A stretch of 64,000 nt of DNA. It comes from Neisseriales bacterium (GTDB taxonomy: Bacteria; Pseudomonadota; Gammaproteobacteria; Burkholderiales; Q3-R57-64). The translations under genes were made by a program, and so were the position numbers. The notes beneath the pieces were generated by a model. It saw only the letters and a program-made list of their open reading frames with translations, was not told the DNA's origin and did not search any database. Where the stretch lies: the NCBI GenBank assembly GCA_016699915.1, contig CP064990.1, positions 448,671 through 512,670 of the forward strand, written 5' to 3'. Shown piece after piece: positions 54,601 through 56,619 of this stretch. Positions within the stretch are counted from its first letter, which is position 1. The number at the start of each line of letters is the position of its first letter.

Positions 54601-56619
54601 ACTTTGTCAGATGAGCTAGATCAAGCACCACGGAAACCAACTCAATCGCACGAAAGGGACATGTCGCTTTCAAGCACACCATACTTTGATCGTGAGAAAC
54701 CTGTTACTGATCAGCCTTTAGAACAGGCAGCCAGCTTGTTGAACGCTTTGAACGATGAACAGAGAGAGCGTTTGGAGGCGTTTCAGCTGCTCTCAAAACG
54801 AGCTCGAGCTGCGGCTGACTCAGAATTAAAAAATGAATATCTCACACAAGAACAAAGTTTCAAGAGAAGCTTGGATGTATCCCAAGTACTCCTAAATCAA
54901 GAAAAAACCCTAACAAAATTTAACTTATCTTCGAGTGGTAGTGGCCAATCCTTTAGCTTTGCTGATCGTGCCTTATCGCAGAGAATCAAAGATGAGGAGC
55001 CAGAAGAGCCAAAGCCATCATCTCTATCCATAGCGGTGTATTCCACGCCATCTTCTCATCGTATGGTTAGTTATATTTCGGGTACCAGCCAATTGATTGG
55101 TCAATCAGGCGAGCAACGTGCAGTTTCATCAGATTCGTCAGATCAAACACCAAGCGCACCAAAGGATATACGGCAAGAAAAGCCGGAATTGCCTAGTACT
55201 GCTAAAAAAATGTCGTTAAGAGAAGAGCTAGAGCTAGCAGGCTTAGATACTGAAGCAAAAGAAGAAGGACTCCTTATAACGCCTACGCCAACAGTAAAGT
55301 CTCGTTTTAAATTTCCGTCAACAACACATGAGAGCTTGTCAGAAGAAGATGAGAGCGCACAAAACAGGAGACATGTTTTAAAGGCCGCACAAGCTACACC
55401 ACCTCCGAATCAAGTACAAGAAATTGATCAGTTGTTAGAAGATGACCAGCGTTCAATACAAAGAACCCAAACATCAAGACACATAACCCACAAAACATTT
55501 AGCAGCTTGGATAGTTTTTCGTTATCATCTGGCTTACCAGGAACGGAATTTAGCGTAAGCCCACTTGTAACTCAACGTAGCGATTTCTCCAACGAAGATA
55601 GATTGGAAAGCATTTTTGAAGTTGCATCATTCACATTGCCACCAAGCGGCGCAGGCGATTTGTCTGTCAAAGATCAAATAGAGAATCAAAACGAGTTGGT
55701 AGCAGCAACCGAGCTTTATCAAGAACTTCATAAAAAAAAATCACAGCTTGAAGATATCCTAGGTGCACTCAAAAAAGATTGGGAACAGAATCAGCGACAG
55801 ATTGAAGAATTAAGAAATGCACGTGAAATACTTCTGTCCGAGATGGGGAAAAATGTATCAACTACTCGGACAGTCTTAGAGGAAGCAGAAGTTGATATAC
55901 GTGATGCTGTAGAGAATTTAGAGGAAAGAGCAGGCGGCCGACTAAGACTTGCTCAAACCCAATTGGATGACATTAACAAACAGCAACGCGCCATTGAAAT
56001 AAATCTAGTCCAAACTGAAAAAGATGATATCGAGGCTGCGATAAAACACAGCCAAAACGTGCGAAAATTTGCATCTCGTTTAAATAAAGATTCAGTCGAC
56101 TTTGATAGCAGAGTAGCAAACTTATTAGTAGAGTTTGAGCATTTTAAAGAAACCGAAATGCATATGGCCAAACAAGACTTTCAAGCGAAAAAGGATGAAT
56201 TAGATAGGCATCTAGAGGAGGCAATATTGAGCGAATATTACTACCCAGCACAAGTGAAAAGAATAAAAGGTATGGTACAAGATATTCAAAGTGCCATGAA
56301 TAACCAACAATCTGTTATAGATAATAAAAGAGCAATATTGGGACTTACTAGACTACCCAGAGGCACAAGTTTCGGCAGTGACATTTCCTCTACATTATCT
56401 TTTCTAAAACCTAGTTTTATGGGCAGATTAACACCTATCCAAGATGAGAATACCTCATTTAACTCAAGATCGAGGACGTCATTTTTCAAAAGAGATAGCA
56501 CTAACAGGCGTCTTAATTATGAAGAAGAAGATGATGATATTCCGAGAAAATCAAGACCAAGACGAAAAATAAGCGATTTGGGGGGGGGGTTCTTACCAAC
56601 CATTCTCCCAGTTATCTGA
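48697..56619 (+). CDS. Giant secreted/outer-membrane-associated repeat protein, part 1 (signal peptide, porin-like N-domain, Cys-x8-Cys helical modules, coiled-coil/low-complexity)
   Basis: 2640-aa ORF with GTG start 10 nt after AGGA. Signal peptide MIRHFTRNCLLVWLCFAQPTVALS. Beta-strand-like N-domain with a porin-like AYDSPQFGGFRISLASG motif. The frame ends 28 nt after the G10 tract. No recognisable enzymatic motif. Confidence 0.8.
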   Translation: MIRHFTRNCLLVWLCFAQPTVALSSELSWVGNISEGGWENEIDWRGRPEELTSHLRLQSTYHFSTDSDVELRAGAQWVDGKISLDELSIAAHNQFGQLRYGRLPSLLSEPVAYQTPTQPTTQRRTAPFNRVPIFFDTLESLSHQTIAYDSPQFGGFRISLASGQSDRYDKPFRQLNGNQAVVESERSFTMDFVNKPRQFAVKSVQISFQPNDLFLARYTLAQYADHVPVFKERSQTMQWDNDHTTTMKHAGDVTGFEPGWIQRYEGGFYQRNIALMASAQFAHLSGLPFDFDSPHSAPFNQSYHDSRQIGLSGAIRLSPQVTIRAGYVTGKSHWVNGLALSTTTSSQTSRRFQTIDAYHPNETVVMDRGTAELEAFVCAELNPDGTCQRYYVPQDAKTLVTQMLSDVTAAVDKIERYFLHIDLASPTLLLDHQAEVLGLLAQKTRTIHCRNDSTLAACQTGVKNILRAAAEIHHIKTDFDQAMDRLERAHNKIQHIWHQVQRAIPHPETETDYLKELYEFVEKAAAYSTQQFAMLHTWEDTMEQVAHYATDEAQSVACHVQEEDRQFDQDVQAVGVANRTVCTRAPVPWGDYVFDGAQVIDPTNRKLCGTFNDDRTCKTYITLKQALDELDSLGGHPQGYLQQADHTVGNIVQTTDNITGYALDQAYTNYLYLRNTDQKKEAALAIWNEAYELVGHFQNVQDWFTSLQSVQQQADLLWQQIQALIPDPTQAIQSERTHYDRAQSVVQTIARYVNSVSGKGSFLNDARHQTIPDVTLIVGQAKDYASRVGCLLNAEDYYAKADRMRLDMVCQNHTLFHYLREAKETYARALQKNPKEMDTDRPNPVWEKEAWLALKNIKDNLTGQIQTVQLASSYCAIKPSSMACQQQAAKVGVALQDANRARQELDRADRRWASVSTTIHRVLEEAISAIPDAERAPLYNEDTLNKIGAFHDQASQFQLHVHGLRDSAYQEFKQAVCLPQSVDVHLSQEDRQQIATIKEELKLTCSEHLNGSVDSTFPDQEIITGVHTPSHSGKPGDSNTGPRHHPKIQKAKRDAMEKWSTCYAKDGKADNKERKAYQADDEADHSEADISNTRHQGSEPTSEAVNRAVLNRQRAEAAIQVARQAREKANADAGIAKAAEAIYQQAYISEHGTNPLPLSNGQDSTPLYTDEDYARPKAHYYADPNQQIPGYGDWIKKPEDTGPPKEPDIHPMKRPPKPYHPPKPNDTEGGSISRSDYDPQHPEAFRQEHAQRVQADRFNTSRRVTNLPDSDPTMKQWMQYLQAHLQQRSTPITGVSPTLNQQVHRDSTPRLVRQQQVAPSTKQQAVQQLKQDIKRLEKQLRWITVSGRPQITRESLKQAAIRLDKDILATKQAIGRSRDTLNLLFFKKKHIHLTHRSDQRRAIQSTQRAYLKAQSMMKKEQATLRFYQQRQALLAKYHRLKNRLAQADEQLDSMTQKGSKQAPRNRAESKVMGEGEVRTTAQKVASPSNTDPIEAKFKQELAALISQVAETESLFEAKHPVLAKRDQDSQSFNAIDMLDKNIAELTEAISLADQQKNKAEVQRLTQARTHYEKQKQQVMARRPTQATTYQNQPRSKQEGKEMGLGWGLKGGNPGKKEIEQSQDEYEEAKEPPPTFSFSEAVGAAEEGLMDEGKIADTQRRMPYLETRKSPNQSLEWKAEKRLQQVDALSQEVTAVLGLAQKSKKDLKDLSKKEDMILQKISDIEKHDQERRARRGTSRLLSLSGSGQSVSLADRVLSQGSEDDPVDESNPSPEMPEIRQSATEEELKDALVDTLDQVLRSIQNMDVEIARLQSTMPSDPIGSAEAQKKIEELEHKKIDMEQAAKDIQLQQRMQKPSDPPSPPDSPTSLSLGKMRSEIQETESLMRSTRGASKEKQVLYFHSEKPVTGQPLEQVTGLLNTLSERKREEGKKVQELSRLAEDGLAEYYLQHQKKLNEPLGSGKPTDRQSPTLSDELDQAPRKPTQSHERDMSLSSTPYFDREKPVTDQPLEQAASLLNALNDEQRERLEAFQLLSKRARAAADSELKNEYLTQEQSFKRSLDVSQVLLNQEKTLTKFNLSSSGSGQSFSFADRALSQRIKDEEPEEPKPSSLSIAVYSTPSSHRMVSYISGTSQLIGQSGEQRAVSSDSSDQTPSAPKDIRQEKPELPSTAKKMSLREELELAGLDTEAKEEGLLITPTPTVKSRFKFPSTTHESLSEEDESAQNRRHVLKAAQATPPPNQVQEIDQLLEDDQRSIQRTQTSRHITHKTFSSLDSFSLSSGLPGTEFSVSPLVTQRSDFSNEDRLESIFEVASFTLPPSGAGDLSVKDQIENQNELVAATELYQELHKKKSQLEDILGALKKDWEQNQRQIEELRNAREILLSEMGKNVSTTRTVLEEAEVDIRDAVENLEERAGGRLRLAQTQLDDINKQQRAIEINLVQTEKDDIEAAIKHSQNVRKFASRLNKDSVDFDSRVANLLVEFEHFKETEMHMAKQDFQAKKDELDRHLEEAILSEYYYPAQVKRIKGMVQDIQSAMNNQQSVIDNKRAILGLTRLPRGTSFGSDISSTLSFLKPSFMGRLTPIQDENTSFNSRSRTSFFKRDSTNRRLNYEEEDDDIPRKSRPRRKISDLGGGFLPTILPVI
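53914..54981 (+). repeat. Dispersed direct repeats within the giant ORF
   Basis: A roughly 57-nt segment (SGSGQS(V/F)S(L/F)ADR(V/A)LSQ) occurs at 53914-53970 and 54925-54981. A roughly 60-nt segment (EKPVT(G/D)QPLEQ..LLN.L) occurs at 54400-54460 and 54694-54755. Confidence 0.85.
56580..56589 (+). repeat. Homopolymeric G10 tract at the ORF1/ORF2 junction
   Basis: Counted directly: g at 56580 plus nine g at 56581-56589. A run this long is very unlikely by chance in sequence of about 40% GC. Confidence 0.95.

What the first reader, a model, noticed from the sequence alone, without database searches (positions are those of the whole stretch)
56580..56589. G10 homopolymer positioned as a translational switch between giant-gene parts 1 and 2
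With G10, ORF1 terminates 28 nt later (...ISDLGGGFLPTILPVI*). With G9 or G12, reading continues as ...ISDLGGG-SYQPFSQLSEHNSELLPQSPNPTNPSPNTGILKFHVDLPERF... into ORF2. With G11, a 32-codon alternative tail ends at TGA 56685-56687. A 10-nt G run in sequence of about 40% GC is very improbable by chance, and no poly-G or poly-C run longer than 6 occurs elsewhere in the window. Homopolymeric-tract slippage is the classic contingency-locus mechanism for surface proteins in host-adapted bacteria such as Neisseria, Haemophilus, Campylobacter and Helicobacter. The alternative explanation is a homopolymer length error in sequencing.
Basis: partly seen in the sequence, partly recalled or inferred. Interest (0 to 1): 0.75.

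Follow-up and report, generated by a model that had tools for sequence, protein, structure and literature searches.

The report
Two poly-G runs split giant gene
A giant, otherwise unknown envelope-protein gene of an uncultured 0.9-Mb sludge bacterium is broken into three reading frames exactly at two long runs of G, which looks like a classic slippage on/off switch but could equally be a run-length error of the nanopore-based assembly.

Summary
The claim that no other long G or C run exists is wrong. A G12 at 58622-58633 sits at the next frame junction.

The three open frames (48697-56619, 56573-58648, 58621-59340) overlap only across these runs. All three keep the same coding signature. They merge into one 3,547-codon ORF with G9 or G12 at tract 1 plus G10 or G13 at tract 2.

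The fused protein starts with a conserved signal peptide and ends in an outer-membrane-type signal (…DLMIRF). It has no homologues apart from one distant metagenomic relative.

The window comes from CP064990, a closed 912-kb MAG. It was assembled from R9.4.1 nanopore reads (23x) and polished once with 12x Illumina data. Run lengths of 10 or more are therefore not reliable to within one base.

No reads, strains or other assemblies could be reached, so tract-length variation, the defining feature of phase variation, is untested.

My best reading (about 0.5) is two real hypermutable poly-G frame switches in one gene. The main rival (about 0.27) is a pure consensus error in an intact gene. If real, it is a new member of a known kind; interest is moderate.

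The parts
48654..48662 (+). Possible extended -10 element (TGCTAGAAT). An AGGAAA at 48683-48688 lies 8 nt before the GTG start. This is a putative promoter and ribosome-binding site of the giant gene.
   Evidence: Read from the sequence. Not tested; inference only.
48697..56619 (+). Part 1 of the giant gene (2,640 codons). GenBank annotates it as IPK86_02350 / QQS16302, starting 21 codons later at 48760. It ends at TGA 56617-56619 when tract 1 is G10.
   Evidence: Coding log-odds are +0.18 bit per codon in this frame and -0.44 and -0.55 in the other two.
48697..48768 (+). N-terminal Sec-type signal peptide (VIRHFTRNCLLVWLCFAQPTVALS|SE). It is followed by a strand-rich domain of about 330 aa with a weak porin-like match.
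   Evidence: The relative has the same leader (MIAILGRFARNFILIWLCIAQPTVAIAS|E). Pfam Porin_4 matches aa 70-170 to profile positions 71-169 with E=0.006 and 16.9 bits, below the 27-bit cut-off.
56580..56589 (+). Poly-G tract 1 (G10 as deposited). G9 or G12 join part 1 to part 2. G10 or G13 stop after 28 nt. G8, G11 or G14 stop at TGA 56685-56687.
56576..58648 (+). Part 2 (690 codons open in frame 2; the frame opens 7 nt before tract 1). GenBank annotates it as IPK86_02355 / QQS16303 from TTG 56684.
   Evidence: Coding log-odds are +0.15 in this frame only. There is no ATG for about 230 codons.
58322..58411 (+). First strongly hydrophobic segment (TALGAGGAGVGLVALGFAIGYVASLLII; fused residues 3209-3238).
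   Evidence: Kyte-Doolittle 19-residue window, maximum 2.43.
58416..58558 (+). In-frame 30-nt tandem repeat, 4.8 copies, 99% matches. It encodes the acidic unit GEETTTEDTT. It is a second kind of length-variable repeat, 63 nt upstream of tract 2.
   Evidence: translation.
58622..58633 (+). G10, G13 or G16 join part 2 to part 3. G12 stops 13 nt later at TAG 58646-58648.
58624..59340 (+). Part 3 (238 codons; the frame opens 1 nt before tract 2). GenBank annotates it as IPK86_02360 / QQS16304 from TTG 58651. It contains the second hydrophobic segment (58627-58704) and ends in the strand-like tail ...KTFTAGIDLMIRF.
   Evidence: Coding log-odds are +0.18 in this frame only. The C-terminal Phe with a basic penultimate residue matches the neisserial OMP signal described in PMC1634882. 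Only 2 of 45 ORFs in the window end in F.
59450..59480 (.). Perfect 13-bp inverted repeat with a 5-nt loop, lying between the giant gene and the convergent HD-domain gene. It is a likely bidirectional terminator.
   Evidence: Read from the sequence. There is no terminator-like site between parts 1, 2 and 3 on the + strand.

Best explanation
The G10 is one of two genuine long poly-G runs: G10 at 56580-56589 and G12 at 58622-58633. They lie inside a single 10.6-kb gene for a 3,547-aa envelope protein. The protein has a signal peptide and a porin-like start in part 1, a long charged middle, two hydrophobic segments, and an outer-membrane-type C-terminal signal in part 3.

Runs of this length gain and lose single G's by slipped-strand mispairing during replication. 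Each change of one base decides whether translation continues into the next part.

- Tract 1 out of frame gives a 2,640-aa product.
- Tract 1 in frame with tract 2 out of frame gives 3,316 aa.
- Only both in frame (G9 or G12 plus G10 or G13) gives the full protein, which carries its C-terminal membrane-insertion signal.

The deposited consensus shows both tracts out of frame.

Shown: the runs, their exact placement at both frame junctions, the intact coding signature of all three parts, and the improbability of the runs given base composition and codon usage.

Inferred: that tract length actually varies in the population, that the full-length form is the functional one, and that switching is useful to the organism. 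The recorded lengths themselves may be off by 1-2 bases.
For: - Both frame junctions coincide with the only two G or C runs longer than 6 in 64 kb. The frames on either side of each junction are both open only across 45 nt and 26 nt, and each stretch contains a run.
- Chance expectation is 0.008 for G>=10 and 0.0003 for G>=12.
- GGG makes up only 11% of Gly codons in 40 background ORFs. The glycines right after tract 2 use GGC, GGT and GGA.
- Each part is coding-like only in its own frame. Across 3,547 codons there is no other stop or frameshift.
- Parts 2 and 3 lack an ATG near their starts.
- The signal peptide is in part 1 and is conserved in the relative. The only OMP-type C-terminus (...DLMIRF, with the basic penultimate residue typical of neisserial OMPs; PMC1634882) is in part 3. 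The parts therefore make sense only as one polypeptide.
- About 40 other genes in the window are full length against curated profiles. All 8 coding A8-A9 runs, six of them inside this gene, are in frame. Polishing therefore worked well up to length 9.
- In N. meningitidis, homopolymers of 8 or more were predominantly length-variable (PMC5084427). Intragenic poly-G switches are established for HmbR and HpuAB (PMC3786947).
- In the only relative, the homologous gene is preceded by T10-A-C20, 20 nt upstream of its ATG. A contig from another sample stops exactly at that run. G/C homopolymers are therefore tied to this gene family in two species.
Against: - Tract-length variation, the defining feature, is not shown. 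No reads, strains or alternative assemblies were reachable.
- The genome is a CANU R9.4.1 nanopore assembly polished once with 12x Illumina data. The same laboratory states that homopolymers of 10 or more remain problematic even with R10.4 (PMC9262707).
- Both tracts lie far 3' in the ORF (74% and 93%). The 'off' state still costs a 2,640-aa product, unlike classic 5'-proximal switches.
- With two tracts in series, only 1 of 9 frame combinations is fully 'on'.
- The surface location of the protein rests on weak evidence: Porin_4 below threshold and AlphaFold models at pLDDT 30.
- The relative's C20 sits at a contig end and could be an artefact.
- The state of mismatch repair in this genome is unknown.
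Confidence: 0.5

Rival explanations
1. Consensus (assembly or polishing) error. The runs exist, but in the organism their lengths are in frame (for example G9 or G12, and G13). The gene is one uninterrupted 3,547-codon ORF, and the three 'parts' are artefacts of mis-called homopolymer length. No biologically meaningful switching need be involved.
For: - The source is CP064990 (MAG Fred_18-Q3-R57-64_MAXAC.425_cln). It was assembled with CANU from R9.4.1 reads and polished with Racon, two rounds of medaka 0.6.5 and a single Illumina Racon round. Coverage was 12.1x Illumina and 22.7x nanopore.
- Indels in homopolymers are the dominant residual error of such assemblies, and runs of 10 or more are the hardest case (PMC9262707).
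- The breaks occur only at the two longest homopolymers of the window. Flanking frames are perfectly intact and coding-like, which is what a one-base miscall produces.
- The same ambiguity is on record for chlamydial pmp poly-G tracts (PMC3323650).
Against: - It requires two independent miscalls, in opposite senses if each is by one base (+1 at tract 1, -1 at tract 2).
- All eight coding A8-A9 runs are in frame, and about 40 other genes have no frameshift. Residual error is therefore low up to length 9.
- The exact 229-aa part-3 protein is also listed from a Logan assembly of public reads. This hints that an independent assembly did not fuse parts 2 and 3, but the contig could not be retrieved.
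- Even if true, in-frame G9-G13 runs built from the rarest Gly codon would still be hypermutable and would still need explaining.
Confidence: 0.27
2. Fixed frameshifts. The giant gene is being lost, as a recent pseudogene in a genome undergoing reduction. The poly-G runs are simply the most mutable sites, where the first inactivating hits landed.
For: - The genome is reduced: 912 kb, closed, 74% CheckM completeness.
- The only relative's homologue carries an in-frame TAA. The TAA is identical in three metagenome samples and cannot be a homopolymer artefact.
- Another contig of the relative keeps only the first 77 codons of the gene.
- GenBank annotates three separate hypothetical proteins.
Against: - There are only two disruptions in 10.6 kb, and both are at the runs.
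- No stop occurs in 691 and 239 downstream codons.
- Coding log-odds of parts 2 and 3 equal those of part 1, so any inactivation would be very recent.
- It does not explain why in-frame runs of 9-13 G existed in a functional gene in the first place.
Confidence: 0.13
3. Recoding. The DNA lengths are fixed out of frame, and full-length protein is made by RNA-polymerase slippage or ribosomal frameshifting on the G runs.
For: A homopolymer allows perfect re-pairing in any frame. Rescue of frameshifted genes at homopolymers has been proposed for reduced-genome endosymbionts (reviewed in PMC5009743, found).
Against: - In transcriptome-wide data, 100% of slippage insertions in homopolymers occurred in A or T runs, and G and C runs were 'not prone to slippage' (PMC5574713).
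- The two tracts need shifts of opposite sign, so the yield would be the product of two small efficiencies.
- There is no stimulatory RNA structure after either tract; z-scores range from -0.98 to +0.62.
Confidence: 0.05
4. Three genuinely separate adjacent genes, as annotated in GenBank. The G runs lie by coincidence at their borders.
For: The GenBank annotation. TTG codons at 56684 and 58651 could serve as starts.
Against: - The downstream frames open 7 nt and 1 nt before the runs rather than at a start codon.
- There is no ATG and no convincing Shine-Dalgarno sequence.
- No promoter or terminator is enriched between the parts.
- Composition and coding signature are continuous across the junctions.
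- The signal peptide and the C-terminal membrane signal are on different parts.
Confidence: 0.05

Closest known systems
Intragenic poly-G/poly-C contingency loci of Neisseria (hmbR, hpuA, pilC, lgt genes, pgtA)
   Same: A G run of 8 or more lies inside an ORF for an envelope or surface function, and changes of one base switch the frame (PMC3786947 and PMC2193922; PMC5084427). NCBI files the host lineage under Neisseriales. The C-terminus has the basic penultimate residue seen in neisserial OMPs.
   Different: There are two tracts in series, at 74% and 93% of a 10.6-kb ORF, rather than one near the 5' end. The organism is an uncultured, reduced-genome sludge bacterium only 90% identical in 16S rRNA to Paludibacterium, and GTDB places it in no family. 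No length variation has been observed. The protein is unrelated to any known phase-variable protein.
Poly-G tracts in chlamydial polymorphic membrane protein (pmp) genes
   Same: Long poly-G runs lie inside large outer-membrane protein genes of a reduced-genome bacterium. Independent sequencing efforts found them in or out of frame, and the published verdict is that it is 'unclear' whether this is artefact or slippage (PMC3323650). That is the same dilemma as here.
   Different: There is no sequence or domain relationship to Pmps. No autotransporter domain was detected. The phylum is different.
Campylobacter jejuni poly-G contingency loci
   Same: G runs of similar length in coding regions drive rapid on/off variation (PMC3025981).
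   Different: In Campylobacter there are tens of such loci per genome, and variation is directly measured. Here only one gene in a 64-kb window could be examined, and the rest of the genome could not be read.
Residual homopolymer indels in nanopore R9.4.1 assemblies
   Same: The frame breaks lie exactly at the longest homopolymers, the flanks are intact, and the assembly is of that type with low polishing coverage.
   Different: No other homopolymer-linked frameshift was found in about 40 genes or at eight A8-A9 runs. The runs themselves are not artefacts of that kind, because such errors change the length of an existing run and do not create one.

Membership tests
Simple-sequence-repeat (slipped-strand) phase-variable / contingency locus | A homopolymer or short repeat long enough to be hypermutable (G/C runs of about 8 or more) | tested here: met
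   G10 and G12. In N. meningitidis, runs of 8 or more were predominantly variable (PMC5084427).
Simple-sequence-repeat (slipped-strand) phase-variable / contingency locus | The repeat is placed so that unit changes alter the reading frame or promoter activity of a gene | tested here: met
   Both runs lie within the only stretches where consecutive frames overlap. The tract-length table shows three-fold periodic outcomes.
Simple-sequence-repeat (slipped-strand) phase-variable / contingency locus | Repeat length actually differs within a population or between strains, reversibly | not testable with these tools
   No reads are available. No second strain or assembly was found in the protein collections, in JGI metagenomes or by exact look-ups.
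Simple-sequence-repeat (slipped-strand) phase-variable / contingency locus | The repeat is over-represented relative to composition and codon usage, suggesting it is maintained | tested here: met
   Expected counts are 0.008 and 0.0003. GGG is the rarest Gly codon at 11%.
Simple-sequence-repeat (slipped-strand) phase-variable / contingency locus | The gene product is surface-exposed or interacts with host or phage | tested here: inconclusive
   The signal peptide is conserved and the C-terminus resembles an OMP signal. Porin_4 scores only 16.9 bits against a 27-bit cut-off, there is no PDB match, and the AlphaFold models have pLDDT of about 30.
Homopolymer consensus error of a long-read assembly | The assembly was made from error-prone long reads with limited short-read polishing | tested here: met
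   CANU R9.4.1, Racon, two rounds of medaka, one Illumina Racon round; 12.1x Illumina and 22.7x nanopore coverage.
Homopolymer consensus error of a long-read assembly | Other conserved genes are also broken at homopolymers | tested here: not met
   About 40 genes are full length against NCBIfam or Pfam profiles. All 8 coding A8-A9 runs are in frame. No other run of 10 or more exists in the window for comparison.
Homopolymer consensus error of a long-read assembly | Accurate reads disagree with the consensus length | not testable with these tools
Decaying pseudogene | Several scattered disruptions and loss of coding signature downstream | tested here: not met
   There are only two disruptions, both at the runs. 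Downstream frames stay open for 691 and 239 codons, with log-odds of +0.15 and +0.18, equal to part 1.
Programmed frameshifting / transcriptional slippage site | A slippery sequence plus a stimulatory element, or a run type known to slip during transcription | tested here: not met
   No significant structure lies downstream. G and C runs were not slippage-prone in transcriptome data (PMC5574713). The two sites need shifts of opposite sign.
Gram-negative porin (Pfam Porin_4) | A score above the family's gathering threshold | tested here: not met
   16.9 bits against 27, E=0.006, aa 70-170 collinear with profile positions 71-169. This is resemblance only.

The most novel reading that the evidence does not exclude
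A serial two-switch contingency system in which two independent poly-G tracts inside one giant gene generate three nested products (2,640, 3,316 and 3,547 aa). The products differ in whether they carry one hydrophobic anchor, two anchors, or the C-terminal outer-membrane insertion signal. Slippage would then change the anchoring or topology of a giant porin-like envelope protein rather than simply turning it on or off. This would occur in an uncultured, probably host-dependent 0.9-Mb Neisseriales-like bacterium from activated sludge. Its only known relative appears to use a C20 run next to the start codon on the homologous gene.
Probability: 0.18. Interest if true: 0.6.

Novelty: new member of a known kind. 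Interest (0 to 1): 0.4.

Why it matters
If the tracts really vary, this would extend homopolymer-driven phase variation beyond the animal pathogens in which it is mainly studied. It would reach an uncultured, genome-reduced environmental lineage, and it would mark the giant orphan protein as the cell's key variable interface with a host, predator or phage. That would give a concrete handle on the lifestyle of a 0.9-Mb 'Burkholderiales/Neisseriales' genome that its authors only noted as unusual.

If the breaks are a consensus error, the practical value is the opposite. Three GenBank 'hypothetical proteins' (IPK86_02350, IPK86_02355, IPK86_02360) should be merged into one 3,547-aa gene. The case would then illustrate that the last residual errors of hybrid-polished nanopore MAGs mimic contingency loci.

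Tried and rejected
- **Whole fused protein as query.** Searching the 3,547-aa protein against 5.8 billion proteins timed out.
- **Genome-collection scan.** I spent the single scan on purA to find syntenic relatives.
- **Exact-protein look-ups for independent contigs.** I tried the HD-domain protein, part 3, part 1 and a Logan variant of der. None was on record, so the Logan assembly that also lists the 229-aa part-3 protein could not be read.
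- **Homologue searches.** Part 3 and the junction-1 region returned only the genome's own proteins. A full HMMER scan of 1.84 billion representatives with the N-terminal 420 aa found only itself and two fragments of one relative.
- **JGI metagenome pattern scans.** Scans for either tract with variable G length and exact flanks gave 0 hits.
- **Domain and structure searches.** Pfam and NCBIfam on all three parts gave nothing above threshold. PDB sequence searches with the single sequence and with a 3-sequence profile gave nothing.
- **Structure prediction.** Single-sequence AlphaFold models of the N-terminal domain and of part 3 had pLDDT 30 and 31 and are uninformative, so no fold search was run.
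- **Frameshift stimulators and internal signals.** RNA folding downstream of the tracts was not different from shuffles. Promoter and terminator scans inside the gene were below shuffle expectation.
- **Chance.** Rejected as an explanation for the runs.

Full report
**1. Checking the observation**

The + strand carries G10 at 56580-56589. ORF1 (48697-56619, 2,640 codons) ends at TGA 56617-56619, 28 nt after the run.

G9 and G12 continue into the next frame (…ISDLGGGSYQPFSQLSEHNSELLPQSPNPTNPSPNTGILKFHVDLPERF…). G11 ends at TGA 56685-56687.

One statement is wrong. The window contains a second and longer run, G12 at 58622-58633. These are the only G or C runs longer than 6 in 64 kb. The G-run spectrum falls as 325, 50, 12 and 1 for lengths 3-6 and then jumps to 10 and 12. 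The expected numbers are 0.008 for G>=10 and 0.0003 for G>=12. Only 2 of 200 Markov simulations reached a run of 10, and none went beyond it.

**2. Anatomy: one gene, three frames, two tracts**

Three open stretches follow one another on the + strand:
- frame 1, open 48685-56617
- frame 2, open 56573-58646
- frame 1 again, open 58621-59338

Consecutive frames are simultaneously open only over 45 nt and 26 nt, and each of these stretches contains a run. The second frame opens 7 nt before G10, and the third opens 1 nt before G12.

With G9 or G12 at tract 1 and G10 or G13 at tract 2, the three parts fuse into a single 3,547-codon ORF with no other interruption.

Other evidence that the parts belong together:
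- Parts 2 and 3 have no ATG near their 5' ends. GenBank starts them at TTG 56684 and TTG 58651.
- No promoter or terminator signal separates the parts.
- A codon-usage log-odds score built from 40 other ORFs of the window is positive only in the designated frame of each part: +0.18, +0.15 and +0.18 bit per codon, against -0.44 to -0.62 in the other frames. The downstream parts are therefore as gene-like as part 1.
- GGG is the rarest glycine codon here (11%). The glycines just after tract 2 are encoded GGC-GGT-GGA. The runs are therefore not a side effect of encoding oligoglycine.

**3. The protein**

The fused product has these features, from N- to C-terminus:
- A Sec-type signal peptide, conserved in the only relative.
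- A strand-rich domain of about 330 aa containing a YDSPQFGGF motif. It has a weak, collinear Porin_4 match (E=0.006, 16.9 bits, below the 27-bit threshold).
- A region with scattered cysteines up to about residue 1100.
- A very long, highly charged, Cys-free middle.
- Two strongly hydrophobic segments (residues 3209-3238 and 3311-3336). They flank an acidic 10-aa repeat, encoded by a 30-nt tandem repeat of 4.8 copies at 58416-58558, and tract 2.
- A strand-like C-terminus, …KTFTAGIDLMIRF. A terminal Phe with a basic penultimate residue is the signature reported for the vast majority of neisserial outer-membrane proteins (PMC1634882). Only 2 of 45 ORFs in the window end in Phe.

The signal peptide is therefore in part 1, and the membrane-insertion signal is in part 3.

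Beyond this the protein is an orphan. Pfam and NCBIfam gave nothing above threshold, and PDB searches gave nothing. Among 5.8 billion proteins, part 3 and the junction-1 region matched only the genome's own entries. Single-sequence AlphaFold models were useless, with pLDDT of about 30. The idea that the N- and C-terminal strands form one barrel remains untested.

**4. Provenance, which decides how far the run lengths can be trusted**

Parts 1-3 are GenBank QQS16302, QQS16303 and QQS16304 (IPK86_02350, IPK86_02355, IPK86_02360), labelled 'MAG: hypothetical protein [Neisseriales bacterium]', on a 912,463-bp contig.

Supplementary Data 3 of Singleton et al. 2021 identifies that contig:
- It is CP064990, MAG Fred_18-Q3-R57-64_MAXAC.425_cln, circular, from activated sludge.
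- GTDB places it in Burkholderiales with no family assigned.
- Its 16S rRNA is 90.2% identical to Paludibacterium.
- CheckM completeness is 74%.
- Coverage is 12.1x Illumina and 22.7x nanopore.
- The polymorphic-site rate is 0.0002.

The paper singles it out as a 0.9-Mb reduced genome.

The assembly used CANU on nanopore reads, then Racon, two rounds of medaka, and a single Racon round with Illumina reads. The same laboratory later wrote that such assemblies contain homopolymer indels that cause frameshifts, and that runs of 10 or more 'will probably still be problematic' even with R10.4 (PMC9262707). G10 and G12 may therefore each be off by one or two bases.

Against a generally error-ridden consensus: about 40 other genes in the window match curated profiles end to end. 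All eight coding A8-A9 runs are in frame, and six of them lie inside this gene.

**5. Related sequences**

A full HMMER scan of 1.84 billion representatives with the N-terminal 420 aa found only one relative. It is known from short JGI metagenome contigs from three samples. The longest contig, L083 (7,171 bp), encodes a homologue of residues 1-1290 at 30% identity.

Two observations are relevant:
- The relative's gene is a single frame interrupted by one in-frame TAA (L083 2853-2855). The TAA is identical in all three samples, and the frame stays open for a further 1,438 codons to the end of the contig. Interrupted yet otherwise intact giant genes therefore occur in this family without any homopolymer being involved. 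This keeps the recent-inactivation reading alive.
- L083 begins AAATA-T10-A-C20 and then has 20 nt before the ATG. A contig from another sample, L082, starts one base after that C run. This is expected if a real long run breaks short-read assemblies, but a contig-end artefact cannot be excluded. If the run is real, G/C homopolymers accompany this gene in two species, once inside the ORF and once next to the start codon. Those are the two classical positions of phase-variation tracts.

The relative's contigs do not reach the regions that correspond to the two junctions.

**6. Mechanism and rivals**

What is shown: there are two improbable G runs, a change of one base at each run decides the reading frame, and the three parts have the properties of one gene.

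What is inferred: runs of this length slip during replication, so the population is a mix of frame states. In N. meningitidis, homopolymers of 8 or more were predominantly variable (PMC5084427). Intragenic poly-G switching is established for HmbR and HpuAB (PMC3786947). I give this reading about 0.5.

- **Consensus error (0.27).** The out-of-frame state would be an artefact of an intact and possibly stable gene. It needs two miscalls, but they would be at exactly the kind of site where miscalls survive polishing.
- **Fixed frameshifts in a gene being lost (0.13).** This fits the reduced genome and the relative's TAA. It does not fit the undiminished coding signature, and it does not explain why the runs exist.
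- **Recoding (0.05).** This is unlikely. G and C runs were not slippage-prone in transcriptome-wide data (PMC5574713). The two sites need shifts of opposite sign. No stimulatory RNA structure follows either run.
- **Three separate genes (0.05).** This conflicts with the frame geometry and the missing start signals.

Two features are atypical for a classic on/off locus. The tracts lie at 74% and 93% of the ORF, so 'off' still yields a 2,640-aa protein. With two tracts in series, only one of nine frame combinations is fully 'on'. This leaves room for a more interesting reading: three nested isoforms that differ in their membrane anchors. I cannot support that beyond the anatomy.

**7. Comparison with what is known**

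The arrangement works like the intragenic poly-G contingency loci of Neisseria and Campylobacter.

The closest parallel in both biology and uncertainty is the poly-G tracts in chlamydial pmp genes. Two sequencing efforts on the same strain disagreed on the frame, and the authors could not tell artefact from slippage (PMC3323650).

Membership in the phase-variable class is met for tract length, placement and over-representation. The defining feature, observed length variation, could not be tested here.

**8. Verdict**

If real, it is a new member of a known kind in an unusual organism. I rate interest at 0.4. The decisive experiment is simple: count tract lengths in the existing reads of PRJNA629478.

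Noticed in passing
L083 1-56 and L082 1-20 (JGI samples 3300035180 and 3300037010): The relative's homologue of the giant gene is preceded by AAATA-T10-A-C20, then 20 nt, then the ATG, at the very end of the contig. A contig from another sample starts one base after the C run. This is either a real run next to the start codon that breaks assemblies, or a contig-end artefact.
   Followed up: partly
L083 2853-2855 (= L081 2282-2284; also in L084): A single in-frame TAA interrupts the relative's giant gene and is identical in three metagenome samples. Homology to the window protein continues across it, and the frame stays open for 1,438 more codons.
   Followed up: partly
L082 250-2198: In one contig of the relative, the giant gene's first 77 codons are followed by unrelated sequence and a ThrE-family gene. 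This is either a deletion variant of the giant gene or a chimeric contig.
   Followed up: no
window 58416-58558: A 30-nt in-frame tandem repeat of 4.8 copies at 99% identity encodes GEETTTEDTT, between the two hydrophobic segments of the giant protein. Its length is also potentially variable.
   Followed up: partly
window 47317-48639: purA is full length against Pfam (positions 2-416 of 416). GenBank protein accessions run der = QQS16301 and giant-gene part 1 = QQS16302, with nothing in between, and the exact purA translation is not in the protein collection. It may be annotated with another start or flagged as a pseudogene.
   Followed up: no
window 786-14093: A gene cluster for a selenium-dependent molybdenum hydroxylase (ygfK, ssnA, FAD and Mo/Fe-S subunits), guanine deaminase and modABC. 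This is a sizeable purine-catabolism and molybdate investment for a 0.9-Mb genome.
   Followed up: no
window 13251-14093: ModC is 280 aa and matches only positions 3-239 of the 353-position profile. It appears to lack most of the C-terminal regulatory domain.
   Followed up: no
window 59450-59480: A perfect 13-bp inverted repeat with a 5-nt loop lies between the convergent giant gene and the HD-domain gene. It is a likely bidirectional terminator.
   Followed up: no
window 10316-11668: A 450-aa ORF with no NCBIfam match lies between the guanine deaminase gene and modA.
   Followed up: no
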